Assembly (NCBI GenBank): GCA_973895155.1 | Contig: OZ316892.1 | Location: forward strand, 8,613,580-8,677,579 | Direction of reading: 5' to 3' | Source of the DNA: Marsupella aquatica | Taxonomy: Eukaryota; Plantae; Marchantiophyta | DNA: 64,000 nt | In this document: positions 12,978 through 53,500 of the stretch, in pieces | How positions within the stretch are numbered: position 1 is the stretch's first letter | Layout: each line of letters starts with the position of its first letter | The notes under the pieces: model-generated | The model's database searches: none | What the model saw: the letters and a program-made list of their open reading frames with translations, nothing else | What the model was told of the DNA's origin: nothing | Program-made: the position numbers and the translations under genes

Positions 12978-15900
12978 TCAGGTAACCTGAGTTACATTCA
13001 CTTTCGGCATCATCTTCGATGTATCCTGCAACCACGGCAGGCCAAACGAGGCACATTGCTCTAGGGAGGCTGCCCAAGGTATATCCACAATCGGCCCTAA
13101 GGTTATCCGCCAAAGATCTAACAAAATGGTAACGAGCATAGCTGCTCCCAGTGAGTCAATTGCCGTCTGACTTAGTGTCCATGGTCGTTGGGGATTCGCG
13201 TCTAGCCTGCATAAGGAACAACAAACAGGGTTAGCCCCAAAAATCACCCCTGCAACTCCTGAGACATAGAAGCCAGCATTTTAGCACACAAACAAATACA
13301 ACTTAAAAAACTCGGGATTACTGAGTGTCGAGACACTTTTTCTAGGTAAAGTAGTTTCAACCTAGGGTGAGTTTCCGGCACTCGTCATGTCCACAAAACA
13401 GAGGGGCATGCAGACAACAGATGAGTCATGCACTGGACCTCTAGGCTGAGTGAAATAAAGCAAACACCAGATGGAAATCCGCCAAGATGCCAGTGAGCTT
13501 TTTGGATATCAGCCATATCTTTGCTAGACAACAAGAAAAGAAACAGAGGTAATATCCCAGGACTGTAACTCCGTGGCTTGCTAAAACTACCAGAGGCTTG
13601 CTAAAAATGCCGTGCATAGCTGAGTTGTTGAAACTCATTCCTCACACTAAGTTTGGGAAAACTAGTCTCAAATGAGGAGTCATGTCCACATAATATTGGC
13701 GGGTAAGACAACTGAGGGAGTCATACTGAAGATCCTCTAGGCTGAGTGAAGTAAAGACGGTATATCCGGCACTCATCATGTCTACACACCATTAGCATGT
13801 AGACGACCGAGGAATCATGCCATGCATTCTCTAGGCCGAGTGAAATAAAGCACACCAGACCAAAATCTGCCAAGACGCCGGTGAGCTTTTTGGATATCGG
13901 CCATCCTAGTGACTGTTTGGAAAGAGAGCTGCTGCAAAAGTCCTCTGGAAAGGCATGACCGAAAGGAACTCTCTAATTCTTACAACCAAGATGGTGCATT
14001 ATACAATCATATCATTTTGCCCTTGCAATGGAGCATGCATTTACGGAGTTTGCACTCGGTAGAGGTGACCCACCTGTAAAACATGGGGAAACTCACGAAG
14101 AAGTAAATGGCATAGAAGAACGACCCATATTTGTACATAGCTCCCCTGTCCACCATTTCGTAGTATGGAAACTGGGCACCACATTCCATAGCACAAAGTC
14201 TTAATATAGTTCTGACCAACCGACTCTAAAAATTACAAATAAATCGCAACACTAAGAGAAAGTACCAAGAAAGTGAATGATCAACAGCTTACGTAAGCAA
14301 TTGTGACGGCCTCCACGAAGGCAGTCACGATGGACAAGACAAATATCCACACAGCTTCAATCAAAATCCTTGCAAACACACTGTGGATGTCTGAAATTGC
14401 ATGTCGGAGCCGTCGGATTGTAAAATTAGAGATCATGTGATAGAACAAGAAGTAAGAGTGTGTGAGGAGGAACGTTGTCAGGGGTACCTACAAACCACCA
14501 CACCAGTTTTCACAAAATTGAAACAATCAGCAATCTGCTTCTTCTCACTAGCAATCATGAGTGGGAAAGAGAAACTCCGGCCCATTTAGACTACCTTCTC
14601 CAGATCAATCACCGACACAGCGGAAGGACCTACTCCCTACCTTAAGGAGATGTCGGACATTTGCTGAACAATGCAAAGAGAATATCTTCTTTAAAACAAT
14701 ACAAAAGCAGGGGTACATTTATAGTTTTGAAGTCGTGAAATTCCAAATCCTCACATGATTCAGCTTATAGGACGGAAATGAGTATGTCGCACCCAGGACT
14801 GTGTAGAAGTAGTGGGTCCAGAAGTAATTTCCCACATATCCAAAAATGAATATCCACAAATTAGCCTGCACCACCCACAACGAAGCTCAATAAAACGGTC
14901 GCATTCAGGTCGCTCTTGTTAAGCCGTTCCATTCACAGAAAAACTATCGCACGGGACCACTGGACAAGTCAGGTGAAGGAGTGCGAAAGGGACTAAAATT
15001 TAAGGGTGATAGAGATGCGGATGTACCTTCACCCAGTATCGTTTGTAAAATGGCTTCTTTGCATCTTCCTACACTCCACACTGCGGCATGTCAGTCCAAA
15101 CGCTTTGTACAAGGTCCGTGCAGGTTATCATGAGTAAGACAAAAGATAATAGTTCCGTCAGAGAATTGAGGGAAACCCAGGTTAGTAGACAGGACATACC
15201 TTCCCAACGAAGAAAATGGGCAGTGTGAATGTTGGCACTGCACAAATCAGCCCTAATACCAGGTACTCCAGCTCTTGAAATTTCTGTAGGAATGACCAAC
15301 GGATATAATTGTAGAAGGCAACGTCAGTCAGACCTAAATGTCACTATCCAAGGCACGATCATGACCCCTCTGCAGTGTAAAGATACTTGACATGTTATAG
15401 ATGTTCCCACTAACCTTGGCCCCGCACATATAGGTCAACTGCAGACAACCGGCTTTCTAACTTTTCTTTAAGTTGCGTAAACTTTGAGATGTATTCTCGT
15501 GTTACGTGACTCGGATCATTGAGGCGAAGCCCTAGAGAGTCAGAAGAAAACAAGAACTTCCTGTGAGAGCAACCGAACACCGTATTTACACACGAAAGTG
15601 CAACAGGTTGCCTGAGAGACTGCTCTCGGCTGAAACCGATCCGAGTTGACGAAGTCCTACTTCAGGACACTGCGAGCAGTCTGATTCGAGAATCTATAAA
15701 TGGAAGACACACATTTCCGAAACTCCTACACATTCTGTCCGATGATGCAACCTTCTAACAACCTTGTAACAAGCTGTCTCGAAAGGGGAAAAAACAAATT
15801 GCACAATAACTTAGCAGGGGAAGAACGGGTGCCACTCTCACCTCATAGAGTTGAAGGGGGACCACGACACAAAGGCAAAGAACTATCCAGAACGGACTGT

Positions 15901-15982
15901 ACGCCAAAAAGAACAGCTCCCCCCATCTCTGGCTGAGATTAGGGGCCAGCCACGGGGCCAGCCACGGACTAGCCGGTCCCAT
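12978..15982 (-). CDS. CPI1: Cycloeucalenol cycloisomerase (cyclopropyl sterol isomerase), 7 coding exons
   Basis: Exons read WLAPNLSQRWGELFFLAYSPFWIVLCLCVVVPLQLYE / KFQELEYLVLGLICAVP / KPFYKRYWVK / ANLWIFIFGYVGNYFWTHYFYTVLGATYSFPS / VPLTTFLLTHSYFLFYH / FPYYEMVDRGAMYKYGSFFYAIYFFVSFPMF / DSLGAAMLVTILLDLWR, closely matching plant CPI1 as I recall it. Confidence 0.95.
13373..13905. repeat. Three diverged ~90-150-bp repeats inside the last CPI1 intron
   Basis: catgtc(c/t)aca...agac(a/g)ac...tcat...ctctaggc(t/c)gagtgaa(a/g)taaag at ~13386, ~13681, ~13777. Copies 1 and 3 continue with caccaga..gccaaga..gtgagctttttggatatc.gccat. Confidence 0.8.
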
Positions 15983-16549
15983 TTCCTTCTTTCCATCTGC
16001 CAGGGCATCAGAACATCACTCAACATCGAGAGCCAGAATACTGCTGACGCAGGTCTCAAACATCTCGGAAGAAACACTCCTTTCACGACAGATCCCATGA
16101 CTGGAAAGCCCAAAGAGTACCCGAGGCTACAAGACATTCGTTTACTGGGCCTGACTACGACGAACGACGAACAAGGGAGCGACAAGCTTTTCGAGTCAAG
16201 TGGAAAACGAAGATCAACACTGGAACGGCAGATATACTGTCGAAAGAGTGCACAATATACAACGGCAAGAAAGGATTCAAATGCACCCTAGCTTTCTTCG
16301 GTCTCGAGAAGAGTAATGACCTAACTCTTTGGGTTTCATTTCCACCTTCTTTGGCCCTCTCTTCTTGACGGAACTCTTCTCTTCCGCCATCGTCGATGAA
16401 CTGCAAAACCTAAACTGTTGATCTCCTCTCCACTCCTGGTCTCTCCTCAATGCCCCGGGCGCTTAGAAAAATGCCGTGCTCTCGGTGTAAAGTCCTTCAC
16501 ATTGCGTCCATTACATGTGTAGCTGCCCTGTTACAAAAGAATAGGATAA

Positions 16550-16650: not shown

Positions 16651-17059
16651 ATAATGCACATAAAAATTTGAGTGACTTTTCAGTAAGAAACAAGAAAAAG
16701 TGAATCCCTCAAATAGAAAATTCAGATTAAAAGGTCATCCAAGAAGTGGTTGTTATGGAAGGCCAAAAATATAAGTTCTTGAGTTATATTAGATTCTACT
16801 CATAGATATTTTGTTTGTAACACCATATAAGATTTTGTTATCATCTTGAGATCTTGACTAAATTTAATTGTTTTTTGTGTATGGTAAAACTATATTTAAT
16901 TTTTACTTTTATTATATTTATGGTGTTTTGTATAATCCCCTCCTCAGAAAAAGGGGTGCATTATGGAGAATTAATGCACTCAAATATACAAAGAGAAAAG
17001 TCATGAAAGGCTTTATGGGCATGGAAATGGGTGCAAAGGAGCGTATTTTTTAGGTGCAA

Positions 17060-17289
17060 ATTTTGCCAAATTACACCTCCCCAAAAAAGTGTTTTCCACT
17101 TTTGGCTAGCATTTGCTAGATTTTTTTATGTCATTTGTCACTTTTCCACCTAAGCATGAACCCCATTGGCCAGAATCCAACTCTCATCCCTAAATCTAGG
17201 GATATCTGATGGCAGGATGTAATCCATGAAAATTTGACAAAGAATCTTCCTTGCATCTTTTCCCTTAGACGAGCTGACATTGGCCACAC
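17060..17289 (+). repeat. Dispersed repeat interrupted by the retroelement; continues at 27141-27165
   Basis: Aligns with the uninterrupted diverged copy at ~27750-27990 (ccccatt.gccagaatc.aac..tcatcc.taaatctaggga.atctgat...gacatt...ac.ctggc.aaaaa). Confidence 0.8.
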
Positions 17290-17648
17290 TGTCATGCCGA
17301 GGGACAGTGCCTCTTATGCACATCGGCATGTCCCTCGCATGCCCGCTAGGTATGTAGTTAGGGCTAGTGTACTACTTGAGTTAGCGACATGTTCTTATAG
17401 CAAATGCCAAGCGTTCTTGAAGCAAATGCGCTTGTTGGTGTGACGCCAGGACTTTGTTTACTTAGGGCATGTCTTTCTTTGTGGGGTTTTCAGTTCTTCT
17501 TGAATCGCTGTTGACAGAGCTCAAACAGTGCTCGTCGGTTCCGTACACGGGATTCACACAGTGATTCGTTAGATGCTCCCGGCCGATCTTGGCATTTCAC
17601 CGGTTTTCAATTCGATTTCAGTACGCTTGTTTCTCTTACGCCTTTTAT
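17290..17648 (+). repeat. Terminal repeat A1 (359 bp)
   Basis: Matches 26606-26964 with ~11 substitutions by eye. Confidence 0.97.
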
Positions 17649-17660
17649 TCAAGAAGAACT
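17647..17660 (+). promoter_or_regulatory. Self-priming (Tf1-like) primer binding site
   Basis: attcaagaagaact at the end of A1 is the perfect 14-nt reverse complement of agttcttcttgaat at 17492-17505 inside A1. No TGG-starting tRNA-type PBS is present. Confidence 0.75.
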
Positions 17661-19387
17661 CTTGAGATAGCAGTGAGGGGAAGAAGATTGCTTGTGGCGG
17701 TTTCGATAATTTATGGTGAAATCATTGCAATTTCTTCAACGAACATCGGAGCAACGAGTTGGAAGTTGTGGGTTTATGTTGTTATGTGTATATTTAAGTG
17801 TATACACATATCAATGCTCCCGAGGAGGTCCGGATTTCATTTTCTGGTTTCATCCCCTTTGCTCCTTCTTACTGTCACGACCGCTTGCTGCCTCGACTGC
17901 TTTTGGGGTCGTTTCGCATTCCCGGCCACGGCTACCGGCGAGTTTCCCTCGACTACCGCGCGATCACCTCGCGACTACCTCCCGAGCGCATAGAGCCACG
18001 GGTCCGTTTGCTTTCGCCTTTTTCCGATCGCGACCTACTGCCACCCAATTTTTCTTCCCGGCCGTTGTTTCTTCTCGCCTTCTCGCCTTCCCTCGCAGTT
18101 ATTGTCGCGAGCTCGAACCTGCCTGTGTATACAAATACGACATTCATTAAATTACCCCTGGGCGCGCATAGGGCCGCACGCCCGCCCTTTCGAGCTTCGC
18201 TCTTCCAGTCCTCCCGCACATAGGACATTGTGCCTTGTCTTAAAGGGGGTCCCGGTTTTCTTTTGCCTCCTCCAGGCCTCGTTCCAGGCCTCAACCTTCC
18301 GCTGCCAGCATTCATAGGGGGGAGATAGAGCCGAGGCAGCAGCGCAAGGAGTGGGCACGAGGCCCTATGCTACATTAAATGGAGGGGGGAAGTACATAGA
18401 CTCCTTCCCTCAGGAGTCCTTTTGCCAGGCAGTTAGGCACGGAGGCCTATGAAGCATTAAATCAGGGGGAGGGGGAGCGAGTGCCAGGAGAGGGCACAAG
18501 GCCCTAAGCAACATTGAAGCAGGGGAGGGGAGTACACTCGACTCCTCTCATGGGAGTCTTTTGCCAGGGCACTAGGCCCAAATTGCATTAGAGGAGAGGA
18601 GGGGGGAGTTCGTAGCCCTTTTCGGGAGCACATAAGATGGGGCACAAAGCCCTATGGAGGGCTCATGCCATTAAGAGGGCCCATCATTTCTGCTCTTTCG
18701 CCTCTTCCTTTGCCACCCGACTGTCAGTGCCCGATTCTCCCTTTTTCGGCTATTTTCCACCTCTCGACGTCTTCTTTCTCCCTGCCACCGGCCTCGGTGT
18801 ATACACATACGGGAGTGCATAGGGCCGCGTGCCCTCCCTACTCCCTTCGACACTTTTTCCGGACGCGACCTGCTTCCGGCCTAGTTTTCCTCCCGGTCTC
18901 GGTGTATACACATAAGGGAGGGACCTTTCCGCCATTTTTGTTGTATTATTCCTTTTTATTTTGACCCTCTTGGGCCGGTATACACATCGGGGCCAATTTC
19001 ATTCTCTTTGGCCCTTACCTCACGCCGTTTATTTCATTTGTGGGTTTCATTTCCTAGCCTTGGGGTTGTCACTCCTTTTCTTATCAGTTTCTTTCCCATC
19101 AGCACCCCGGGTTAGCATGCAGCATGTCAGCAGAGGAGCCAAGTCGTAGCAACACATCGCCACCGACACCCAGGTACCATTTACGGAGTGATCCATGACC
19201 ATTGGTGCCAATTTCATTGGAGTCTCGGCAATTTTGACAACGTCAACAGACAACAGCAGCACCCACACCACGCAACCCTTCTGTTACATTTGGCGGTCGC
19301 TTCACCACTACCCCAAAGCCTGTTATTGTTTCTTTGCCCTTTACTCCTTTTGCATCAGTGGTTGTTCCAGCTTCACCGACATACAGC

Positions 19388-21193
19388 ATGGACGCCAGCC
19401 ACTCATCTGGCTGCATTGAACGCTTCAGTGGGCGGCCAGGCACTGTTTCTTTGCGTGAGTTCAAATCCACTTTCTACACCGTCATTTACGAATTGGAGTT
19501 GAAGTACGGCAGCAATTTCACAAATGCTTTTGCATTTAAGCAACTAGCCAGGTATGTGCACCATGAGACTTTGGATGTGTATGAGCAGCACTCTCAACGG
19601 CTGCTTGCTGTCACACAATTGCCTAACCCTGCCTATGCCAGTGCAATTGCGGCAGCATCATAATTGGCCTTACAGAATGCCATTGCAGCCCATGCTGCTG
19701 CTCCTGCCACTTCCCCTCCTACTCCACTTCCTACCACAGTGCCAGTTACTCTCATTGTCTTGGCACAGGCTACATCAGGCATTTCTCCCACCATTGATTC
19801 CCCTGCCTTTGCTGATCCAGTGGCTGAGTTTTTCCAGGTTCTTGAATTGGAATTCCCAATCAAGAGTGCTGACAAAATCATGCAGTTGGCCACCTTTGTG
19901 AGGCAGCGCGATGAAACCTTGAAGATGATGTATCGTCGGCTTCTCAAGCTGAAGGAGGACACCCAGAGCATCACTGACCTGGAAGTTGCTCATCGCTATC
20001 TTTACGCATTGGAGGGCACACCAGCTCTCCATTCGCAAGTGTTGCAGCAAGTATTCTCAGAGTTTGGAGACAGCTACACCCTGCTCAATGTCTATGACAC
20101 TGCTGAGAAACTTGAGTTGGCCCATGCACATTATGAGGCCAGTATTGCACGTCCACCGCAATCCAGGTACCAGGCTGCTGCCCCTACACTGGCCACCCCT
20201 TCCCGTGTGCCACAGTATGGTTCCAAGACCAAGCCAGCCCATGCTGCTTTCATGCTGCCATCTTGCAACTACTGTGGTAACCCCAATCACAAGGCTAATA
20301 AATGTGATATTGTTGCTGAGGACCTGTCTTGCGATTTTTGCGGGAAAGTGGGCCACTTGGAGGCAGTTTGTTTTACCAAATTCCCAGAGAGGAAGCAGCT
20401 ACGACAGCAAACCCCTCCTCCTGCTCCTACTTCCACTCCCCCACCAGCTAGGAGGGCTCCTATTGCCTCAGTTGCTCCTCCTTCCAGTGGCAAATCACCT
20501 CGTGCCACCAAATCGCCCAAGCAGCCACGGAAGCAACCAGCTCAGAAGGAGGCTCACAACGCACAGGCAACTCAACTCCAGTCTCTGACTCATGAGGTTG
20601 AGTCCCTACATGCCCAACTTGCCAACATCAAAGGCAAGTCACCTGCCTCTATTGGTCCTTCTCAACCGGCTGGTCACGTGCAACCGATCCCTGGCCCAGG
20701 CATCACTGACAATTCAGCACCTCTACCCCGCTCTTTCTATGGCTTGCCATTTGATGCTCATATGGGTGAGTGTGTGTTGTCCTCTGCTACAAAGCCTGGC
20801 CTTACAGCAGAATTTTCAGATTCATTCTGCCCTTCCTATTTTGCTTACCAACAGGCTAGTGCTGCCTCCCGTATTGCTCCCACACGCCCCATTGTACAGG
20901 CTGATGGTCTTGCTGCTGGTCCTATGACTAGAGCCAGGGGAGCTCGGGCTGTCATGCCCCAATCTTTTCAGCCACTCACACTTGCTGAAGAACGCACCTT
21001 GTTGGTGAGGGGGGATGGAGCTGCAGCTACATCCATTCCACCACCAAGTGCTGCTGACATTTCACAGGGAGTTGTTTCTCTTGAGTTGCTTGAGCATTTC
21101 ACCTCCAGTATGGCACAAAGGATTCTTACAACTCCACTTTTCAGTTGCCATGATTTACAGCTGGATGCTAGAGCTGTCCTCAAAGCGCTATAG
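19388..21193 (+). pseudogene. Retrotransposon Gag with two CCHC zinc knuckles
   Basis: MDASHSSGCIERFSGRPGTVSLREFKSTF...; CNYCGNPNHKANKC and CDFCGKVGHLEAVC; in-frame TAA at 19661 and TAG at 21191. Confidence 0.9.
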
Positions 21194-21459
21194 GGTTCAC
21201 TGCATTCTTCATCAGCCCCTGTGATACCAGTTTTGGAGGTCCAATCTCATGTACATACTGGACCTTCTTCTTCTCCTTTACATGTTTCTGGTCCTGGCTA
21301 TGTTGTTGAGTGGAAAGACCATGGACACTAACTCCCTTCACAAGGTACCTCATCATTTGCCGAGAGTGGTGCCTAGTGACAGGACTTCAGTTTCCACCAC
21401 CATTGCCATTGTTGACAACAGGAATTCAATGGTCAAGTTGGAGGGTCACACTCCTCAGG

Positions 21460-21800
21460 TGGTCATGCTAGACACAAGTGCTTAACCAGTGATATTGGGC
21501 ATTCAGTTTGCCAAGAAGATGGGACTGTTGACTGATCATTTATAGCAATCCAAGTGGCACATTCGAACTGCTAGTGGCACTGTGGAGGATGTGCTGGGTG
21601 AGAGTTCTACTTTACTCACTCTCACTTTTAATGGAGGTACAGATCAGGAACTGCATTTCCCAGTCAGATGTTTGGTTACCAATGCCACTACGTATGATGT
21701 GCTCATTGGCCAGGAGGCTTTGTTCCCACCAGGTTTTACCATTGACAACTGGCATGAGCATGCATACTACAGAGTTGATTGGCATACTGATGGCTCACAC
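21460..21800 (+). pseudogene. Retropepsin-like aspartic protease domain
   Basis: VMLDTSA*PVILG (decayed D[T/S]G motif), IRTASG flap, YDVLIGQEAL; two in-frame stops. Confidence 0.8.
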
Positions 21801-22133
21801 TTGGGCTACATTCCACTTGATTTGCATGGTGCCCATACACCTATGGCTCACCACTGTGTGTTGAAAGCAGTGCACACAGCTACCGATGTCAACCACCCAT
21901 TGTAGGATTGGATTGAGGAGGATGACGATGAGGTGGCTGCTGCACATGCTGCTGCACGTATAGCAGCACTTTCCAACAACGTGGATCATCAACCAGAGTT
22001 CGTACAACGGCTCCAAGCAGCCCATGGACTTTTGGTGGCTGCATTGCGCAAGTTTGAAGACCTTGGGCAGCACAATGGACAGCCGATAGCCCCAATCTTG
22101 AGCGCACCAGTTACATGGACTCCTGCTCCGGAT

Positions 22134-23070
22134 GGCCTTACATTGCTTGAGCTTTTTGGTGGCATTTCTATAGGCCCGGAAGCTCTCCTACAGTCCGGCA
22201 TGGTGGTGAAGCAGTACATCTACGTGGACATTGATCCAGGTGCAAGGCAAGTGGCTGAATCCCGTTTGCTGGAATTTTCAGAACGATTTCCCCAGCAGTT
22301 TCCACACAATGCATGGAAGTCTGCATTTTCTTTCTTCCCTCCAGATATCCAGCTTGTCCAGCACCGACACTTAACCCTTCTTGGTTCCCTTGATTTGATC
22401 ATAGCTGGTTGGGAATGCCAAGGGTTTTCAGCTGCTGGTCATGGTGTTGGATTGCATGACTCTTGTTCTAGCCTTTTCACAGCATTGGTTCAGATTCTCA
22501 CCTGGGCTCAATCCCTTTATCCTGCTGTTGGTTATATCATTGAGAATACTCCATCTCAGTTTGACCAGCGTCCACAGGTCAAAGAGGATTTCAGTGTGGT
22601 CCAGCACTACTTGGGACCACCCCTTCTCATTGATGCAGTGCACTGTGGTTCTTATGCACATCGTCTTCGTAACTTTTGGACTAACCTTGCACCACCTTCC
22701 TTGTTGGAGTTGGCTCTTCACCACACATCCAGGGACACTAACCTCACAGTGGACCAGATTTTGGATCCTGACAGTTCTTGCCAACCAGTTACACAGCAAG
22801 AGCCAGCATCTTGGTATCCAGCCAATACCATTGGACAGCCCCGTGCTGCTTGGCCTACATTTGTATCCTTTCCAGGTGCACATGCTTTTTAGGGTGATGG
22901 TCCTGGCCTGGTTTTTTGACATTCTACCGGTACATGGGATGAACCTAGTCCTGAGGAGAGAGAACGGGCTATGGGCTTCCAACCCGGTACTACAGGTCAC
23001 ACCAAAATCACCAGGTTGGCCAGGAATGCTTTACTTGGCAGGGTAATGGATCTCAATGCTCTCACTTGGC
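22134..23070 (+). pseudogene. DNMT3-like C5 DNA cytosine methyltransferase domain embedded in Pol
   Basis: Motifs in canonical order: I LLELFGGIS, II YVDID, III PDI, IV DLIIAGWECQGFS (catalytic Cys), VI YIIENT, VIII DAVHCGSYAHRLRNFWTNL, IX EERERAMGFQPGTT, X TRLARNALLGRVM. Same frame as PR and RT, with TAG and TGA stops at ~22890-22920. Confidence 0.92.
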
Positions 23071-23439
23071 TTCTGGTCACTTGCATCCTTTTTCAGATGT
23101 ACATTCATTCAGCATCCGGAGTTCCAGCCCTACCACTCCATGGTGCTGTTACATGGCATCCAGACCAGGTGCACTTACCTCTATTCAACACTCATCGCTT
23201 CAGTCCAAGTGTTGGGGGGGAGGATGTCCCTTGTAATGTGGCTGACATTATTTCTGAGTTTCATGGTGTGGACCAACCCAGATCAGCAGGTACAACAGGC
23301 CTTGGAGAGGCCTCATCACCTTATCAGCAGCATGCTAGCAGCTTGGACAATAGAGAGGCTAGCACTTCTGGTTCTTCAAGCATGAGTACATCAGGTCCTA
23401 TTCCTAGTGTTTCCAACTACACATTCATCATGGGCAACC

Positions 23440-24780
23440 ACCTGAGTAAAAGACAGAAGGACCAGCTGCTGAATTTGTTCCTCAAGCATGAGAATGTGTT
23501 TGCTTTCTCTATGAAGGACTTGGGTAAGTGCAAGACTATGCAGTTCTCCATTGAGTTGGCTGATGAAACACCTATCTTCAGGCGGAGACACCGTTTGAGT
23601 AAGCATGAGTGGCAACTAGTGGAGGAGAGGTGCCAAGAGCTCTATGAAGCTGGTCTTATTCAGCCATCTACATCAGATTTTGCAGCAGCTACAGTGATGC
23701 CAGCAAAGAAGGATTCCAGTGGATTGTGGACAGAGAAGCGCATGTGTGGGGACTATAGGCCATTGAACCTGGTCACACCCCAGGATAGGTACCCCATGCC
23801 GCGGCCAGAGGAGCTATTTGACAGCATTGGAGACTCAGACATCTTCACTCTTGTGGATCTAAGGCAAGGCTTCAACCAGATTTTGCTGCTTGCAAAGGAT
23901 CGCAAGAAAACAGCTTTCCATGGTAGTAACCAACTATGGGAGTGGTTGGTGATGCCATTTGGCTTGAAGAATGCGCCCATATTCTTTCAAAGAGTCATGG
24001 ACCAGGTTCTGCAAGGTGCTGAGTTTTTGAAATGCTACATTGATGATGTGTTGGTCCACAGCAAAGGATTTGACCAGCATCTACTTGACCTTGAGGAGCT
24101 ATTCATGAGGCTTAAGAAGGTGAACCTAAAGATACACCCCAAGAAGTATGAATTTGCTGTCAGATCAGTAGTATACCTTGGGCACCGCATTCTTCCAAAT
24201 GGAACCATGGCTCACCGGGCCAAAGTGGTATCCATCTTGGAAATGCCCACTCCTACTGATGTTCACACTCTTAGGAGCTTTATTGGGTTGTGCAATTACT
24301 ACCGGATCTACATCAAAGATTTCAGTACCATTGCACATCCATTGTACTCTTTGTTGAAAAAGAATGTGACTTGGACATGGAGTACAGATGCTGAGGCAGC
24401 ATTTGCCACTTTGAAGGAGAAGCTCTCAGAATACCCGGTGCTTAGAAGACCTGATTTCATTTCAGCAAGGTCTTTGTGCTACACACAGATTGGAGTACCC
24501 TTGGGATTGGTGCCATTCTGGGCCAGCATGATGAGGAAGGTAAAGAGTACGTCATTGCCTATGCATCCAGGAGCAACAATCAGGCAGAGAGTCATTATTC
24601 TTCTTATGAGGGTGAATGCCTTGCTGTTGTGTGGGCTATCATACATTATAGGCCCTACCTCTATGGGACCAGGTTTGTCCTCTACACCGACCACCAGCCC
24701 TTGAAGTGGTTGATGACCAACGACAAGCTTATTGGCAAGCTTGCTCGATGGGCGCTCATACTCATAGGCCTGGTGTGACA
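23440..24780 (+). pseudogene. Reverse transcriptase and RNase H
   Basis: RMCGDYRPLN, DLRQGFNQI, MPFGLKNAP, YIDDVLV, LRSFIGLCNYYR; RNase H HTDWS..YEGECLAV..YTDHQPL. A 5-bp duplication (atttc, 24454-24463) causes a frameshift, and there is an apparent short deletion near 24760. Confidence 0.97.
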
Positions 24781-25099
24781 CATCAAAATGCTGACACTAT
24801 GTCTCGCAGCCCTTTGATTGCCTCTAATGATTCCTCAGATGCACGGCAGGATTTTGACCAGGTTTCCATCCTGCCTACATTTCATGCATCTACCTATCTT
24901 GCTTTGCTGCCATGCTACGTTGTTGACCAACCTGTGGTGGACATATGGGAGGACAACGACACTCTGAGATTTTTGCAGCATGGGGAGTACCCCATACATG
25001 TTACTGCTGCCCAGAGAGACCGAATTCAGCAAAGGTCCAAGCGCTACTTGTGGAAGGGAGATCATCTCGTGCGCTGCTTGCCAGACAGGGAAGTGGTGG

Positions 25100-26180
25100 T
25101 TCCACCCATTCATGAGAGGGTTGGCCTTATCCGTAAGGTACATTCTGAGCTTGGTCATTTTGGTGTTAAGAGGACTTACAGCCTCTTGGTCCCTCATTAT
25201 CATTGGAGAGGCATGCATGGCCAGGTTCGAGATGTTATTGCCCGGTGTGAACAGTGTGATAGGGTGAGGACTTCTTTCACATCTCGGCAACCCACACTTC
25301 ATCCACTCCCTATTCAGGGCATGTTTTATCGCTGGTCATGTGATTTGGCTGGAGAATTACCCCTCACGTCTCGGGGTAATCTCTACATCATGATCATGAT
25401 AGAGCATTTCTCCAAGTGGATAGAACTTGTGGCATTTCCGGATAAGACCTCCCATAGCACCAGCCAGGCATTCCTACAACAAATTTTCGGCCGCTTTGGA
25501 GCTTGTGCAGAATGTCTCACTGACCAGGGCTCAGAGTTTAGAGGAGAGTTCCAGGAGCTGCTTGATCAGGCCCTCATTGATCATCGCCGGACATCACGAG
25601 ATCACCCACAGGCAGATGACTTGGCAGAGCGCATGGTTAAGACATGCAACAAGGGCCTCCGGAAGATCTGCCTCACCAAAAACAAGGAGGATTGGGACCT
25701 GGCCTTACCCTACATTGCCATGGGGTATAGGATGTCCAGACATGCATCACTGTCTAACTTTTCTCTCTACTTCTTGTTGTTTGGTCGTCACCCAGTTCCA
25801 CCTTCTGCTATTGCTGCTCACATGCTTTAGGTGGTAGACTTGGATTCAGCTGTGACTTGGTCTGATGTGATCTCTGAGAGGGCTGCCCTATTCAGGAGGG
25901 TTATGCCCATGGCCATGGAGAATTTGGCCATTGCACAGCACAGGGACACACTACGTTATGCACACACACGAGGGGGCACTTTTCAGCCCAAGGTCAGGAA
26001 GTTTGATGTGGGAGATTTTGTGTACTTGCAGCGGCAAGCTAACGACACCCTGGACACCTCTACCAGTCGTACTATTCTCAGGGTTAAAGCTATTCGACCA
26101 TCTGGAGTGCTAGAGTTACAAGGGGCAGATGGGCGCACAATTGCAGACAATGCCAAGAATTGCGCCCCTTGTCATCTGCC
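25100..26180 (+). pseudogene. DDE integrase
   Basis: HHCC (HSELGH...CEQC), catalytic WSCDLAG / LTDQGSEF / LAERMV, C-terminal VGDFVYL; TAG at 25828. Confidence 0.96.
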
Positions 26181-26235
26181 TAACCTGGATCCCACCATTA
26201 TGACTTCTACTTGGATTCCACCTGTGGACTACCCT

Positions 26236-26388
26236 TGCAAAGTGTGTTTGTGAATTGATGATGCTGACCAGATGCTGCTGTGTGACAATTGCAATGGAGG
26301 GTACCATCTTTTTTGCCTTCGGCCTGAACTTACCCAGGTGCCAGAAGGGTTATGGTTTTGCCCTTCCCGTGCTCCACGTGCTACCTGA
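26236..26388 (+). pseudogene. PHD finger at the integrase C-terminus
   Basis: CKVCL*IDDADQMLLCDNCNGGYHLFCLRPELTQVPEGLWFCPSR: C4HC3 spacing with the conserved Trp; last Cys position is Arg (cgt). In frame with the integrase. Confidence 0.9.
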
Positions 26389-26420
26389 ATTTTCTTCAGC
26401 CCTCCTTTTGGATGTGGTCT

Positions 26421-26427
26421 GGGGGGG
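26421..26427 (+). promoter_or_regulatory. Polypurine tract (G7) immediately before B1
   Basis: ggggggg directly abuts atacagagg, the first bases of B1. Confidence 0.7.
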
Positions 26428-26603
26428 ATACAGAGGTTTACACCTCCACTACGTACATACCACTTCATTTGCTTTTTCTTGGCACTTGTGAATGTGATTG
26501 GACTTTTTCTATGCATGTTGGTTGCTAGCAGCTTGCACATATGCCTTGCCGGTGACTTATATGTTTTCGATACACTATGGCTACGATACTATATGTCACG
26601 ACA
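26428..26603 (+). repeat. Repeat B1 (176 bp)
   Basis: Matches 26965-27140 with one substitution; ends tgtcacgaca. Confidence 0.97.
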
Positions 26604-26605
26604 AC

Positions 26606-26964
26606 TGTCATGCTGAGGGACAGTGCCTCTTATGCACATCGGCATGTCCCTCGCATGCCCGCTAGGTATGTAGTTAGGGCTAGTGTACTACTTGAGTTAG
26701 CGACATGTTCTTATAGCAAATGTCAGGCGTTCTTGAAGCAAACGCGCTTGTTGGTGTGACGCCAGGACTTTGTTTACTTAGGGCATGTCTTTCTTTGTGG
26801 GTTTTTCAGTTCTTCTTGAATCGCTGTTGACAGAGCTCAAACAGTGCTCGTTGGTTCCGTACTCGGGATTCACATAGTGATTCGTTAGATGCTCCCGGCC
26901 GATCTTGGCATCTCGCCGGTTTTCAATTCGATTTTAGTACGCTTGTTTCTCTTACGCCTTTTAT
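26606..26964 (+). repeat. Repeat A2 (359 bp)
   Basis: Copy of 17290-17648, separated from B1 by the dinucleotide ac. Confidence 0.97.
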
Positions 26965-27140
26965 ATACAGAGGTTTACACCTCCACTACGAACATACCAC
27001 TTCATTTGCTTTTTCTTGGCACTTGTGAATGTGATTGGACTTTTTCTATGCATGTTGGTTGCTAGCAGCTTGCACATATGCCTTGCCGGTGACTTATATG
27101 TTTTCGATACACTATGGCTACGATACTATATGTCACGACA
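26965..27140 (+). repeat. Terminal repeat B2 (176 bp)
   Basis: Copy of 26428-26603, joined directly to A2 (..ccttttat|atacagagg..). Confidence 0.97.
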
Positions 27141-27289
27141 ACACTGGCTAAAAATTAAAAAAACTTAAAAAATAAAGTGGTGTAAAGGTTAGTGTTGCAT
27201 GGTGTAAACCATGATTTACTAGCTAAATATACGTGTTTTGCACAAGATATGTACTTGAGTATATATATATATACTCTCGCCAAAGATAT

Positions 27290-27610
27290 GGATATGTAAA
27301 AGATGTAATGAAGTAAAAAGATGTTGTTATGTGAAAGATGTCGTGAAGTAAAACGATGTTGTTAAGAAAAAAGAAATCATTATGTGAAAGATGTTGTGAA
27401 GTACAATGGAGTCGTGTCGTCAAAGATGTCCTTGTGTAAAAGCCATTGTTCCACCAAAGACGGTGTTATGAAAGATGTTATTTACAACAAAGATGACGTT
27501 GTGCAACCAAAGTCTATGCGTAAAGGATGACATTCCGCAAAAGACTTCATTGTGTAAAGGATATCATTGTGTAAAAGATATTGTACATCACTCATTGCAC
27601 AGAAGATGTT
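27290..27610 (+). repeat. Degenerate aaagatgt(t/c) short-period array; reverse-complement relative at ~51690-52000
   Basis: Many aaagatgt/aaagac motifs at ~15-20-bp spacing; acatcttt motifs at 51.7-52.0 kb. Confidence 0.65.
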
Positions 27611-28235
27611 GATAGCCATTGCTAAAACTGTGGGAACATTCTATTATTTTCTGTGCAATGCACGCGTATTACAAAATAGAGAGGAGTAGACAGAAAAGAA
27701 AATCCAGAGAAAAGGATTCCAGGCCAGCATTGTTTTAGTGGCCAAAAAGTTTGCCAGATTTTGCCTCTCCAAAAGCTTACGCCACTTTTGGCAAAAAAGT
27801 GCTAGTTTTTCTCTATCTCATTAGCCACTGTCCCACCTAATCACAGACCCCATTAGCCAGAATCTAACAGTCATCCTTAAATCTAGGGAGATCTGATAGT
27901 CAGGAAAGTATTCCAGGGAAAATCAAATAAATAATATTTTGAGCATCTTCTCCTTTACGTAGTAGACATTCACAACTCTGGCAAAAAAGTAAAAACCTTA
28001 AAGTTTACACTGTTCCAGGCTACTTCCTATTCCATGCTACGTGCTGTTCATCTTGTCCCCATCCCTTTTTTTGGTATGCATTTTCACTTTCAGTTAGAGC
28101 CATCAATTAGAGTCATGGTCTAGAGTCCAGTTAGAGCCCTCAATTAGTCACGGTCTAGAGTCTTCACATTAGGCGGGAGGCCCGAGGAGTAGCTTTTGAT
28201 TTGTGCTTTATTGATTGGATTCACCACACTTGCTA

Positions 28236-50500: not shown

Positions 50501-53500
50501 GGGCACTCATTAGCGGATGCGACATTCATGCTTTGGGAGTGAGTACTCCAGGTCACCCGAAGTACGTATATAGTGAATTGTGGTTTAAGTGATGTGCATT
50601 GCACAGAGTTTGTGCTTTGGTGCAGGAGATAATCGACAAGTAGAATGTTGGGTGAAAACTAAGGAGAGATGAAAGAAAGGGCAAAAGTTTGGAGGGTGGA
50701 AAGCCAAGGCAAAAGTTCCAAGACAAATGGTTAGCACAGTTGAAAGGAAGTGAGGGAGTGGGACTGGTTAGAAAGGCCGCCAAAACTCTCTCTTCAGGTA
50801 AGTTGCATATTTCTTTAGATTTGCATTATGACTTTGGTGGCCTATCCAATAACTGATGCCTTTGAACACAACTAAGTCATTGATGTCAACCTGTCATTTG
50901 TTATTAGCAATCATGCATGCAACCCACACACTTGATGAGTGATTGTTAACATTGGTGGCAAAGTTGGTGGTGTCCAATCCACAATCAAGCTTGACAGACC
51001 CATAAGAATGTTGAACACTGGTCACACAATGGCAAAAGACCTGTGCCACACAAAGGACTCCAATATCCATTGAGGATGCCCGTTAGTTAGCCTACCTTGA
51101 TGAGACTGTCATACTCTCAGTACAAGTCTCTTGCCCCTATGAAATAGACTATAGGGAATGAGACATCAGAAAGTATAATACAAGGTCAGGCTTGTTCATA
51201 AGGTGGTTGCCTTCAAATTTTACAGTTTGATTTTCAAGAAAGTAAAAGGATCAGGCCAAAGAGAATTGAAAGACCAAAAAATAATTACATTTAATTAGTG
51301 TGAAGGAAAGAGTGACACAGTTTTCCAAGCAAGTAAAAAGGGGATCTACTAATGCATGAGAATCAAGTACTTTGTGTACCACCCATGCATAGGAAGGCAT
51401 CCATGCATAAAAAATGCTCCTCACTCTACCAACCATGCACAAGAAGTACCTCATGATACTGTGTAATAATAGGAGTTTAATTGATTGCAAGTATTACATA
51501 ATTAATAAGATAGTGCAAAGTGTAATCAATGAAAGAAACAGGAGACCAAAGAGTACTGCAAAAAGAGGGAAGAGAGGAGTGGGGGTAGGTGGGTTAAGGT
51601 TTAAAAGGAAAAGAAAAAAAAAAAAATGGGAAAAAACAAAGAAAACAAAACATCTTACTTGGTAGTACTTGGTTGTTGTGGTCCATCTTTTGCGCCATGA
51701 CATCTTTTACTGGACAACATTTTTTGAACAAGAATATATTTTTAAGAAACATTTTTTTTATTCAATGATACGTTCTGCACCATGATATTTTTCTCAAGGA
51801 CATCTTCAGCACAACAACATCTGTTATGTATTGACATCTGTTGCTGAACAAAATGTTGTATTACTTAGACATCTTTTGCACAAGAATATCTTTTACTTAG
51901 CAACATCTTTTGAGCAACATCTTTTGAACAACATATTTTGCTTGATGACATTTTTTGTAGAACATATTTTATGCAACGACATGTTTTATGCAACAACATC
52001 GGTGATTGAACTTGTCTTATGTATAGCAAGGTCCCTTTTACCATGTTTGCCATATTAATTTTGTGCTATACACTTGAAGGACACTACTTGTATCTCAATT
52101 TTGCAATTGAATTTCTCTTCTACAATACTTGGACCGATTGCTATATAGTAAGGGGCCCTATGGAACATAAAGATGGTCCAAATCAATCCACACCATCAAA
52201 CAAAGCTCACTGCACCAATTAAATCACACCTGCCTATATAAAAGTGCCCCTTTCCTTGCTGGCCCACTGCTCATTTCTGACCTAGGTGAACATTGTACTT
52301 GCCCAAGAAAATAGAGCCCAAGTCCATTCCTATTAAACCTGGATGGTGTGCACTGTATAATTAAAGCTACAGGTAACCCAAAGCTCTTATACAAGTAGTC
52401 ATGGTTTGAGATAACAACAAATAACAAGTGACTCATAGCATGCATAGTCAATTGCCATGGACTACCAACCACCCCTTGCTTCTGGGCTGTGCCACAATTG
52501 TTATGTTGCCAGTCATGGTTCACTAGTCCACTGGTTGACTTGCAATGGATCTCAAGATGACCTCTTGATAAACAAGTGATGGTACTTTTCTTATATATAC
52601 TTCTTGGGAATTGTCACAAAGGGACCAACATTGGTTTTCCATAAGTTGGCCCTAAACCAAAGTGTTTGATTGGGTCTGCTGGACCTGCCTAGCCCTCATA
52701 GATATAGGCAGGCATTTAGATGCTAGGCACAATGATGTGTCACAATTTGCAGTATCTAAATGGACTTGGGGGCCAAAAGTTATGCCCAACTTGAGTAATT
52801 GGGCTTAGTGGTTCAGGCATTCAGGTGCGTGGTCAGTCCAGGTGGGGACTGTGTCGTTAGTTCATGCATGGTGTTTCTTCAGTCCAGGTGTGGCATGTGC
52901 CACCCAAGATGGTCCGTCATGAGTCCAGGCATAGTTTGGGCCCGCATGACATAGTCCCACTGCTGTGGAGTCAACCAACTCCTAACTTGGTGTCACTTGT
53001 TGGTTCACAGCAGAGCAGGGTCCAGGCAAGTAAGTTGCACCAAGTGTCCCCATGTTCAAAGTGTCATAACATGAGATCCTGATGTCCGTTAAGGATGTGC
53101 CTTATTGCGTTACAATCAGGCGGATACAATCATCATCTATATAGGACTAAGGTCCATCTTTAGACCACCTTTTTGAGATGGTAAACTTCCCATACTTTGC
53201 TTCCTTGGCTAGGGAGTAGTTGCAATAAGGGTCTCAAACAATAGGTAAGTTGAGATCATAACCCTGTGCCCTGCTAACAAGTATGAGGTTATTAAACAAA
53301 AATGCAGGCTATTTTTCACACATTTTGTCACTAGAAGGGGCAATGCACATCTACATATGAGAAGGGACAGACTTGTATCCATTAACAATTTGACAAACCA
53401 ATTGATATGTTCAATTCCTATAGAACAAGTTCAAGCTACTTTATTTAGATTGGGACTTTGGAGACACTTGTTGCCTGAAAAAACGACAGCAAGATGTATT

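What the first reader, a model, noticed from the sequence alone, without database searches (positions are those of the whole stretch)
26236..26388. Integrase ends in a PHD finger: a chromatin reader and a DNA-methylation writer in one element
Seen: C4HC3 PHD in frame after the integrase, where chromoviruses carry a chromodomain, with an acidic residue just before the first Cys (VDYPC). Known: many PHDs read the H3 tail, and animal DNMT3 is guided by a PHD-like ADD domain that reads unmethylated H3K4. Inference: the PHD steers integration by H3K4 state, so the polyprotein holds a DNMT3-type writer plus an H3 reader. This copy sits ~0.9 kb upstream of the apparent CPI1 5' region, inside an older repeat.
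Basis: partly seen in the sequence, partly recalled or inferred. Interest (0 to 1): 0.7.

Follow-up and report, generated by a model that had tools for sequence, protein, structure and literature searches.

The report
PHD-tipped integrase of Gypsy-DNMT3 retrotransposon
A dead copy of an abundant jumping gene in a liverwort-like plant ends its integrase with a broken PHD zinc finger that is intact across a large green-plant family, where it likely grips unmodified histone H3 tails to anchor insertion, while the element's own DNA methyltransferase probably works separately.

Summary
The PHD is real (Pfam E 1.5e-10) and in frame after the integrase, but broken here: a stop at 26251, Arg at the eighth zinc ligand, another stop upstream. 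It is a family trait: 101 of 111 relatives found without the finger as query carry a full C4HC3 there, and it is as constrained as RT. It lacks the K4me3 cage Trp (0 of 101), keeps the H3R2-binding Asp (92 of 101) and best matches unmodified-H3 readers (BAZ, ATXR5, KDM5-PHD1). The element (17290-27140) is a Gypsy with a DNMT3-type domain, A...B-A-B repeats and a 4-bp target duplication, like KnitGypsy-Dnmt3 of Klebsormidium; the host is liverwort-like. The PHD stays on the integrase while the DNMT changes place between clades, so the ADD analogy is weak. Histone binding and targeting are untested; flanks gave no targeting signal. PHDs in algal Gypsy polyproteins and DNMT3-Gypsy elements are each in print; I found no text on their pairing or on land plants (one key figure unseen). 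This scan noted the same pairing before on other DNA. Verdict: new variant of a known kind, moderate interest.

The parts
17290..27140 (+). Whole retrotransposon copy, TG...CA termini, flanked by 4-bp target duplication (17286-17289 and 27141-27144)
17290..17648 (+). Repeat A1 (5' end); 11 differences from A2 over 359 nt
17649..19387 (+). Long GC-rich 5' leader, CpG o/e 0.77; no tRNA-type primer site evident after A1
19388..21274 (+). Gag-like region with two CCHC-like knuckles; 2 stops; no Pfam match, 56% identical to the N-terminal half of relative P0094
21432..21722 (+). Aspartic protease (PF13975 E 1.2e-4); 2 stops
22131..23093 (+). DNMT3-type C5 cytosine methyltransferase domain, motifs I, IV (Cys), VI (EN), VIII (RxR) present; 2 stops
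23400..24455 (+). Reverse transcriptase (PF00078 E 5e-27)
24467..24763 (+). RNase H, set off by a frame change on each side
25105..25608 (+). Integrase zinc-binding domain and DDE core (PF17921, PF00665)
25831..26235 (+). Integrase C-terminal region: long helix, small beta domain (predicted in a relative), conserved CxxCH motif; preceded by a stop at 25828-25830
26236..26370 (+). PHD finger: ligands at 26236, 26245, 26281, 26290, 26305 (His), 26314, 26359; stop at 26251-26253; Arg at eighth ligand position 26368; Asp after Cys3; Asp at the 'acidic wall' column; Gly at the cage-Trp column; PxGxW
26421..26427 (+). G7 run just before B1, polypurine-tract-like (inferred)
26428..26603 (+). Repeat B1
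26600..26609 (+). B1-A2 junction: right terminus, 2-base spacer, left terminus; near-palindromic, circle-junction-like
26606..26964 (+). Repeat A2
26965..27140 (+). Repeat B2 (3' end); 1 difference from B1 over 176 nt
17058..17289 (.). Left part of the older host repeat that the element interrupts (continues at 27145-27169; sibling copy 27746-28002)
13002..16390 (-). Host CPI1 (cycloeucalenol cycloisomerase) gene, 8 matched blocks, 75-94% identical to a Calypogeia fissa protein

Best explanation
The stretch is the broken PHD finger at the integrase end of a dead Gypsy-DNMT3 retrotransposon copy; in working family members the finger likely binds the unmodified N-terminus of histone H3 and so likely tethers the integration complex to nucleosomes, probably biasing insertion away from H3K4me3 promoters. 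Shown: domain identity, position, family-wide conservation, breakage of this copy. Inferred: after protease cleavage the PHD travels with integrase; its Asp after Cys3 and PxGxW pocket would hold H3 R2 and A1, the acidic loop before the first strand would favour unmethylated K4, and no aromatic cage exists for K4me3. The DNMT3-type domain would act as a separate product, most likely on the new cDNA or on element copies, not under ADD-like control by this finger.
For: PF00628 hit in frame after rve. 21 of 21 long homologues of the integrase tail plus PHD carry rve and PHD. With a PHD-free query, 902 representatives at E up to 0.001; of the best 150, 111 were long enough and 101 have a full C4HC3 right after the matched part. 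In those 101: Trp at the cage column 0, Gly 88; Asp after Cys3 92; PxG before the Trp 78; acidic residue at the acidic-wall column or the one before it 65, against 10% background. Best solved relatives are WSTF, CHD4, ATXR5, BAZ2B, Lid/KDM5 PHD1, BAZ2A, DPF, UHRF1, BHC80, AIRE; no ING, BPTF or TAF3 among the 60 shown of 71 or of 195. A predicted model of relative P0032 matches BHC80 (1.5 A), DPF3b (0.9 A), ATXR5 (1.8 A) fingers and foamy-virus/Ty3 integrases. The window's Asp aligns with BAZ2B E1944, the acidic wall that PMC5415848 finds mutually exclusive with the K4me Trp. pN/pS of the PHD 0.15 against 0.14-0.17 for integrase and RT. The three breaks are nearly private to this copy: other copies read another letter at 25828 and 26368 in 4 of 4 runs and at 26251 in 3 of 4. 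The PHD keeps its place in both domain orders while the DNMT moves. This copy lies in CpG-poor old repeat DNA (o/e 0.29 left, 0.46 right).
Against: No binding or insertion-site data. In 29 related insertion sites with 6 kb of flank, repeat sharing (0.12-0.20), GC and CpG o/e (0.25-0.35) did not change with distance from the element, a weak test without genome background. This copy is 0.9 kb from a gene start. The K4-contacting acids vary: 58 of 101 at Cys1-3, 33 of 101 at the exact acidic-wall column; UHRF1's similar finger tolerates K4me3 (PMC3214078). The pN/pS values rest on saturated synonymous sites and in effect one lineage pair. Only 18 of 77 related genomic copies have an intact finger, as expected of decayed copies but no sign of host retention.
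Confidence: 0.55

Rival explanations
1. The finger binds H3 A1/R2 with little regard for K4 methylation and is a generic nucleosome tether that raises integration efficiency without choosing a chromatin state.
For: The R2-binding Asp is kept far better (92 of 101) than any K4-contacting acid (33-58 of 101); UHRF1-type fingers are among the matches and are K4-permissive; no flank gradient.
Against: An acidic loop before the first strand is common (two or more acids in 85 of 101), and K4 methylation weakens binding in BAZ2A/B, DPF3b and MOZ (PMC5415848).
Confidence: 0.25
2. One reading: the PHD acts like DNMT3's ADD domain and guides or switches on the element's methyltransferase at H3K4me0 chromatin, in an uncleaved polyprotein or a shared particle.
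For: Both domains lie in one ORF in this lineage and in 74 of 137 classified proteins; in the 42-row clade the DNMT lies directly before integrase-PHD; the isolated Klebsormidium DNMT was inactive in yeast, which the authors call inconclusive (PMC5890265).
Against: In this lineage about 1000 residues (RT, RNase H, integrase) separate the two; Gypsy polyproteins are cut by their protease (established knowledge); 23 proteins hold protease and DNMT without RT and 12 hold RT-integrase-PHD without DNMT (some may be fragments); the finger is a plain C4HC3 PHD with no ADD match in Pfam.
Confidence: 0.1
3. The finger does not read histones: it is a structural or protein/nucleic-acid-binding extension of the integrase C-terminal domain, perhaps with the nearby CxxCH motif, or it binds a host chromatin factor.
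For: A CH motif 12-32 residues before the finger is kept in 92 of 101, full CxxCH in 63; some PHDs have non-histone partners (established knowledge).
Against: The residues kept beyond the zinc ligands are those of the H3 pocket.
Confidence: 0.08
4. The finger reads H3K4me3 and sends insertions to promoters, as the position near CPI1 might suggest.
For: One insertion 0.9 kb from a gene start; Met three before Cys3 in 86 of 101; one distant relative (P0023) has Trp at the cage column.
Against: Cage Trp in 0 of 101; no K4me3 reader among the top solved matches; the insertion is in CpG-poor repeat DNA.
Confidence: 0.02

Closest known systems
KnitGypsy-Dnmt3 of Klebsormidium nitens (de Mendoza et al. 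2018, PMC5890265; passages, section 9 and a supplement search seen, Fig. 4c not visible); called Gypsy-DNMT3 of streptophytes in preprint 10.64898/2026.05.21.726589 (passages, section 7)
   Same: Intronless DNMT3-type domain in the Pol ORF of a Gypsy element; DIRS-like repeat arrangement with Gypsy domains; purifying selection on the DNMT.
   Different: Here in a liverwort-like land plant, at high copy; an integrase-terminal PHD is not mentioned in that paper's text or its 3 held supplement files (0 occurrences) but could be drawn in the unseen figure; no named K. nitens protein was retrieved for a tree.
Chromoviruses (Ty3/Gypsy with an integrase C-terminal chromodomain; MAGGY targeting as summarised in 10.1101/2021.11.30.470311 and PMC6673714, passages seen)
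   Same: A histone-reader module at the integrase C-terminus, proposed to tether integration.
   Different: PHD, not chromodomain; predicted ligand is the unmodified H3 N-terminus, not H3K9me; split repeats; carries a DNMT.
PHD-bearing Chlamydomonas Gypsy elements: Gypsy-7a_cRei (PMC9940879, section 13 read) and REM1 (seen only as a citation; its layout is recalled)
   Same: PHD in a Gypsy element of the green lineage, with a proposed role in target choice; Gypsy-7a insertions were intergenic 2.6 times more than chance.
   Different: No DNMT is listed for Gypsy-7a and it has two LTRs; the legend lists PHD before INT; REM1's PHD is recalled to lie in a separate antisense ORF. Kinship to this family was not tested.
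EpiLTRs of Cymbomonas and Euglena (preprint 10.64898/2026.05.21.726589; passages)
   Same: Reader plus DNA methyltransferase in one LTR element.
   Different: Chromodomain, DNMT4-related enzyme and DAM; stated to be distinct from Gypsy-DNMT3.
Unmodified-H3 PHD readers BAZ2A/B, WSTF, ATXR5, KDM5-PHD1, UHRF1 (PMC5415848, PMC3214078; passages)
   Same: C4HC3 spacing, Asp after Cys3, PxGxW, acidic loop before strand 1, no cage Trp.
   Different: Binding is unmeasured here; the acidic-wall column is only partly kept across the family.

Membership tests
PHD finger (PF00628) | Score above the curated cut-off | tested here: met
   41.3 bits against 24, read with X at the stop
PHD finger (PF00628) | All eight C4HC3 ligands in an open frame, in this copy | tested here: not met
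   stop at 26251 and Arg at ligand 8; met in 101 of 111 relatives
H3K4me3-reader PHD | Conserved aromatic-cage Trp (two before the His; position recalled) | tested here: not met
   Gly in the window, Trp in 0 of 101
Unmodified-H3 reader PHD | Asp after Cys3 (H3R2) and PxGxW pocket (H3A1) | tested here: met
   window has both; 92 and 78 of 101; role from PMC3214078
Unmodified-H3 reader PHD | Acidic residue for K4me0 (acidic wall, or before Cys1) | tested here: inconclusive
   window Asp aligns with BAZ2B E1944; exact column 33 of 101, either of two columns 65 of 101, Cys1-3 58 of 101
Unmodified-H3 reader PHD | Measured binding to H3 tail | not testable with these tools
   needs peptides; no H3 N-terminus was found in the window or 80 loci for a complex prediction
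ADD domain | GATA-like finger plus C4C4 PHD-like finger next to the DNMT3 catalytic domain (recalled) | tested here: not met
   plain C4HC3, no ADD family match, about 1000 residues from the DNMT
Gypsy-DNMT3 (KnitGypsy-Dnmt3 kind) | Unrearranged, intronless DNMT3-type domain in Pol | tested here: met
   DNMT3A E 2.8e-23 ahead of DRM 5.6e-12 and HhaI/HaeIII 2.6e-7; catalytic Cys 93 of 94, EN 93 of 93
Gypsy-DNMT3 (KnitGypsy-Dnmt3 kind) | Gypsy domain set and order (protease, RT, RNase H, DDE integrase) | tested here: met
Gypsy-DNMT3 (KnitGypsy-Dnmt3 kind) | DIRS-like A...B-A-B repeats | tested here: met
   window; L015 complete, B-A-B in 31 of 80 loci
Gypsy-DNMT3 (KnitGypsy-Dnmt3 kind) | RT or DNMT grouping with K. 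nitens copies | not testable with these tools
   no named K. nitens protein; the RT tree (quick search, 71 rows) holds 67 family rows at 96% against 4 other retroelement RTs, with Closterium rows inside
Chromovirus | Chromodomain at the integrase C-terminus | tested here: not met
   no Chromo match in the window or in 49 relatives scanned
Chromovirus | RT placement in the chromovirus branch | not tested
   no labelled reference RTs were available
DIRS/Ngaro (tyrosine recombinase elements) | Tyrosine recombinase, no target duplication (recalled) | tested here: not met
   DDE integrase; exact 4-bp duplication in 3 of 5 elements with both ends, 3 of 4 letters in one, none in one

The most novel reading that the evidence does not exclude
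A green-lineage-wide clade of Gypsy elements has replaced the chromodomain strategy with an H3K4me0-reading PHD on the integrase, methylates its own cDNA with a DNMT3, and integrates from a circle by cutting the palindromic junction it carries internally (B-A): a self-contained reader, writer and circle-integrating retrotransposon that has thrived in bryophytes, with an algal subclade that adds a Tudor-like and a second, amino-type methyltransferase-like domain.
Probability: 0.2. Interest if true: 0.75.

Novelty: new variant of a known kind. Interest (0 to 1): 0.4.

Why it matters
Target choice by a chromatin reader on integrase is established mainly for chromodomains; PHDs in retrotransposons are often noted and their role guessed, but in the papers I saw not tested. 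This family offers many natural, diverged fingers of one predicted class (unmodified H3), high copy numbers in bryophytes for insertion mapping, and a co-encoded DNMT3 in land plants, where a 2019 opinion paper (PMC6338049) states transposon-encoded methylases are absent. The single copy in this window is a fossil and matters only as a marker of the family.

Tried and rejected
No genome is held for the window, so insertions could not be mapped in the host. IMG/VR: 57 pattern matches, none a relative. No RNA holder listed among 15 runs; no evidence on expression either way. Contig depth over the element is far above the junction bin but is not a copy number; run X1 holds the right junction without differences and may be the window's source. 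The empty site in other individuals was not examined; boundaries rest on termini, the duplication and the sibling repeat. Flank test for targeting was flat and is biased by short-read assembly; target bases showed no strong preference in 46 right flanks. Pfam on four CPI1-region frames found nothing. The protein atlas gave no answer. No complex prediction was run: no histone H3 sequence was on hand, and a pass would follow from likeness to solved PHD-H3 structures. The careful RT tree did not finish; the quick tree was used. Rejected: H3K4me3 reading; chromovirus membership; DIRS/Ngaro membership; a host gene fragment captured by this copy alone (the finger is family-wide). The REM1 paper is not held. 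Literature searches; one search found 2 papers naming Gypsy-DNMT3, one search found 0 holding liverwort, retrotransposon, DNA methyltransferase, Gypsy and PHD finger together; subscription papers, theses, Repbase entries, figures and preprint supplements were not seen and may describe the PHD.

Full report
1. Observation. Translating 25831-26390 gives the integrase tail followed in frame by a PHD that starts at 26236 and a stop at 26386-26388. Read with X at breaks, the frame scores Integrase_H2C2 (E 1.6e-13), rve (E 9.6e-13) and PHD (E 1.5e-10, 41.3 bits against a cut-off of 24), and no chromodomain. The finger is broken in this copy: a stop at 26251-26253 follows the second Cys, the eighth ligand position holds Arg, and another stop lies at 25828-25830. 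The whole copy has 9 stops and 3 frame changes. Contigs of four public runs show that other copies of the family read a different letter at 25828 and 26368 in 4 of 4 runs and at 26251 in 3 of 4, at 99.7% of depth or more, so these are lesions of this copy.

2. The element. It runs from 17290 to 27140, begins TG and ends CA, and is flanked by a 4-bp duplication. Its repeats are split: A at the 5' end, B-A-B at the 3' end; A1 and A2 differ at 11 of 359 bases, B1 and B2 at 1 of 176. The order is gag, protease, DNMT, RT, RNase H, integrase, PHD. The methyltransferase is DNMT3-type: all 26 solved matches of the single sequence are DNMT3A/B/C, and a 14-sequence profile ranks DNMT3A (E 2.8e-23) ahead of DRM (5.6e-12) and bacterial enzymes (2.6e-7); the catalytic Cys is kept in 93 of 94 relatives. 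The neighbour gene is CPI1, 75-94% identical in 8 blocks to a Calypogeia fissa protein, the best of 10 hits, with its start near 16390: the host is liverwort-like and the element's left end is 0.9 kb upstream, divergent. Host DNA left and right of the insertion continues one alignment with a sibling repeat at 27888-28002, so the element does sit in an older repeat.

3. The family. All 21 long homologues of the integrase tail carry rve and PHD. A search with the PHD-free 140 residues found 902 representatives; of the best 150, 111 extend far enough and 101 have a full C4HC3 there, and most of the other 10 show a damaged finger by eye. Named members are green algae: Hariotina, Haematococcus, Monoraphidium, Chromochloris, Closterium. 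Eighty metagenome loci at 75-86% identity (best 80 of 498) share the domain order where long enough; 77 cover the finger and 18 have it intact, some being the same insertion in different samples. Between the window and these copies pN/pS is 0.15 for the PHD (56 copies), 0.14-0.17 for integrase and RT, 0.29 for the DNMT; synonymous sites are saturated and the comparison is in effect one lineage pair, so the values are rough. Of 250 proteins examined, 137 were classed; 74 hold DNMT and PHD together, 70 of them with the DNMT just before the integrase, while 23 hold protease and DNMT without RT and 12 hold RT, integrase and PHD without DNMT. In a quick RT tree of 71 rows, the 42 rows with the DNMT after RT form one clade (100%), the window groups with its 5 nearest rows (100%) outside it, and all 67 family rows are set off from 4 other retroelement RTs (96%). 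The PHD thus keeps its place on the integrase while the DNMT moves.

4. What the finger likely reads. Its best solved matches are WSTF, CHD4, ATXR5, BAZ2B, Lid/KDM5 PHD1, BAZ2A, DPF, MOZ, UHRF1, BHC80 and AIRE, which by established knowledge mostly bind the unmodified H3 N-terminus; no ING, BPTF or TAF3 finger is among the 60 rows shown in either search. An AlphaFold model of relative P0032 (mean pLDDT 78, about 90 over the finger, pTM 0.49) superposes on BHC80, DPF3b, UHRF1 and ATXR5 fingers at 0.9-2.3 A and on foamy-virus and Ty3 integrases. Across 101 fingers the cage Trp column never holds Trp, the Asp after Cys3 is kept in 92 and PxG before the Trp in 78. PMC3214078 (passages) ties that Asp to H3R2 and shows that UHRF1's finger tolerates K4me3; PMC5415848 (passages) defines an acidic wall, exclusive with the cage Trp, in fingers weakened by K4 methylation. 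The window's Asp aligns with BAZ2B E1944, but the column is acidic in only 33 of 101, or 65 with its neighbour. So H3-tail binding is likely, K4me3 reading is very unlikely, and strict K4me0 selectivity is open.

5. Mechanism. Most likely the protease releases integrase with the PHD attached (inferred from Gypsy biology), the finger grips H3 A1/R2 and docks the integration complex on nucleosomes, disfavouring K4me3 promoters (inferred). The DNMT would be a separate product acting on cDNA or element copies, as de Mendoza et al. propose; their isolated Klebsormidium domain was inactive in yeast, a result they call inconclusive. CpG o/e is 0.27 in the coding part against 0.77 in the leader and 0.66 around CPI1, consistent with long methylation by host or element. 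Against targeting: 29 related sites showed no change in repeat sharing, GC or CpG with distance, a weak test; and this copy lies near a gene start, though in CpG-poor repeat DNA.

6. Known systems. The element meets the three features given in text for KnitGypsy-Dnmt3 (DNMT3 in Pol, Gypsy domains, DIRS-like repeats; section 9 of PMC5890265); placement in a tree with Klebsormidium copies could not be tested. PHDs in Gypsy polyproteins are in print for Chlamydomonas, with the same guess about targeting (PMC9940879 section 13; passages of PMC6673714, PMC8557442 and 10.1101/2021.11.30.470311), and reader-plus-methyltransferase LTR elements are described as EpiLTRs. I found no text on the PHD of Gypsy-DNMT3 elements or on their presence in land plants; PMC6338049 (main text read) says transposon methylases are absent from land plants such as tracheophytes. 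Fig. 4c of the 2018 paper, which shows the domain layout, was not visible. Earlier notes of this scan report the same pairing, the split repeats and moss or liverwort hosts on other DNA; I reached these readings before seeing them and tested them here, except the moss label.

7. Verdict. Observation partly confirmed (real but broken finger); interpretation partly supported (reader class yes, steering untested, ADD-like coupling unlikely). New variant of a known kind; interest 0.4.

Noticed in passing
window 26600-26609; 32 junctions in L002-L079: The internal B1-A2 junction joins the element's right and left termini over a 2-base spacer in all 32 junctions printed (GC 18, GT 7, AC 7); with GC it is a perfect 10-bp palindrome, like a preformed circle junction. 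With 4-bp target duplications this suggests (untested) that a DDE integrase cuts a circular intermediate.
   Followed up: partly
L001-L080, 3' ends: 36 of 80 loci have a single B at the 3' end and 3 have A...B only, against 31 with B-A-B: B1-B2 recombination or collapse in short-read assembly; not resolved.
   Followed up: partly
proteins P0008, P0012-P0023 and many of P0183-P0321: The clade with the DNMT after RNase H (includes Hariotina proteins by layout) carries 300-490 residues after the PHD: a Tudor-like stretch (PF21743 weak, E 0.001-0.007 in 2 of 28) and a domain with motif I and SPW-like motifs of amino-methyltransferases (PF02086 weak, E 0.004 in 1 of 21 and 0.013 in 1 of 28), some also a G-patch. 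Possibly a DNMT3 + PHD + second methyltransferase element unlike the described EpiLTRs; all hits are below cut-off.
   Followed up: partly
window 26161-26181: A CxxCH motif 12-32 residues before the finger is kept in 63 of 101 relatives (CH in 92); may be an extra zinc site.
   Followed up: no
protein P0023: One distant relative has Met and Trp at the H3K4me3 cage positions and lacks the Asp after Cys3: a possible switch of reader class.
   Followed up: no
window 17649-19387: A 1.7-kb GC-rich leader with little CpG loss (o/e 0.77) and internal short repeats, facing away from the CPI1 start 0.9 kb off; no tRNA-primer site after A1, which fits tRNA-independent priming (inferred).
   Followed up: no
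window 27298-27522: A short-period tandem repeat right of the element is itself highly repeated in two runs and has a weak match at 51814-51911.
   Followed up: no
proteins P0112 and P0003; P0154 and P0091: Gag-protease-DNMT and RT-integrase-PHD appear as separate complete proteins with equal contig lengths (8955; 11053), suggesting a two-ORF form in some relatives; DNA not seen.
   Followed up: no
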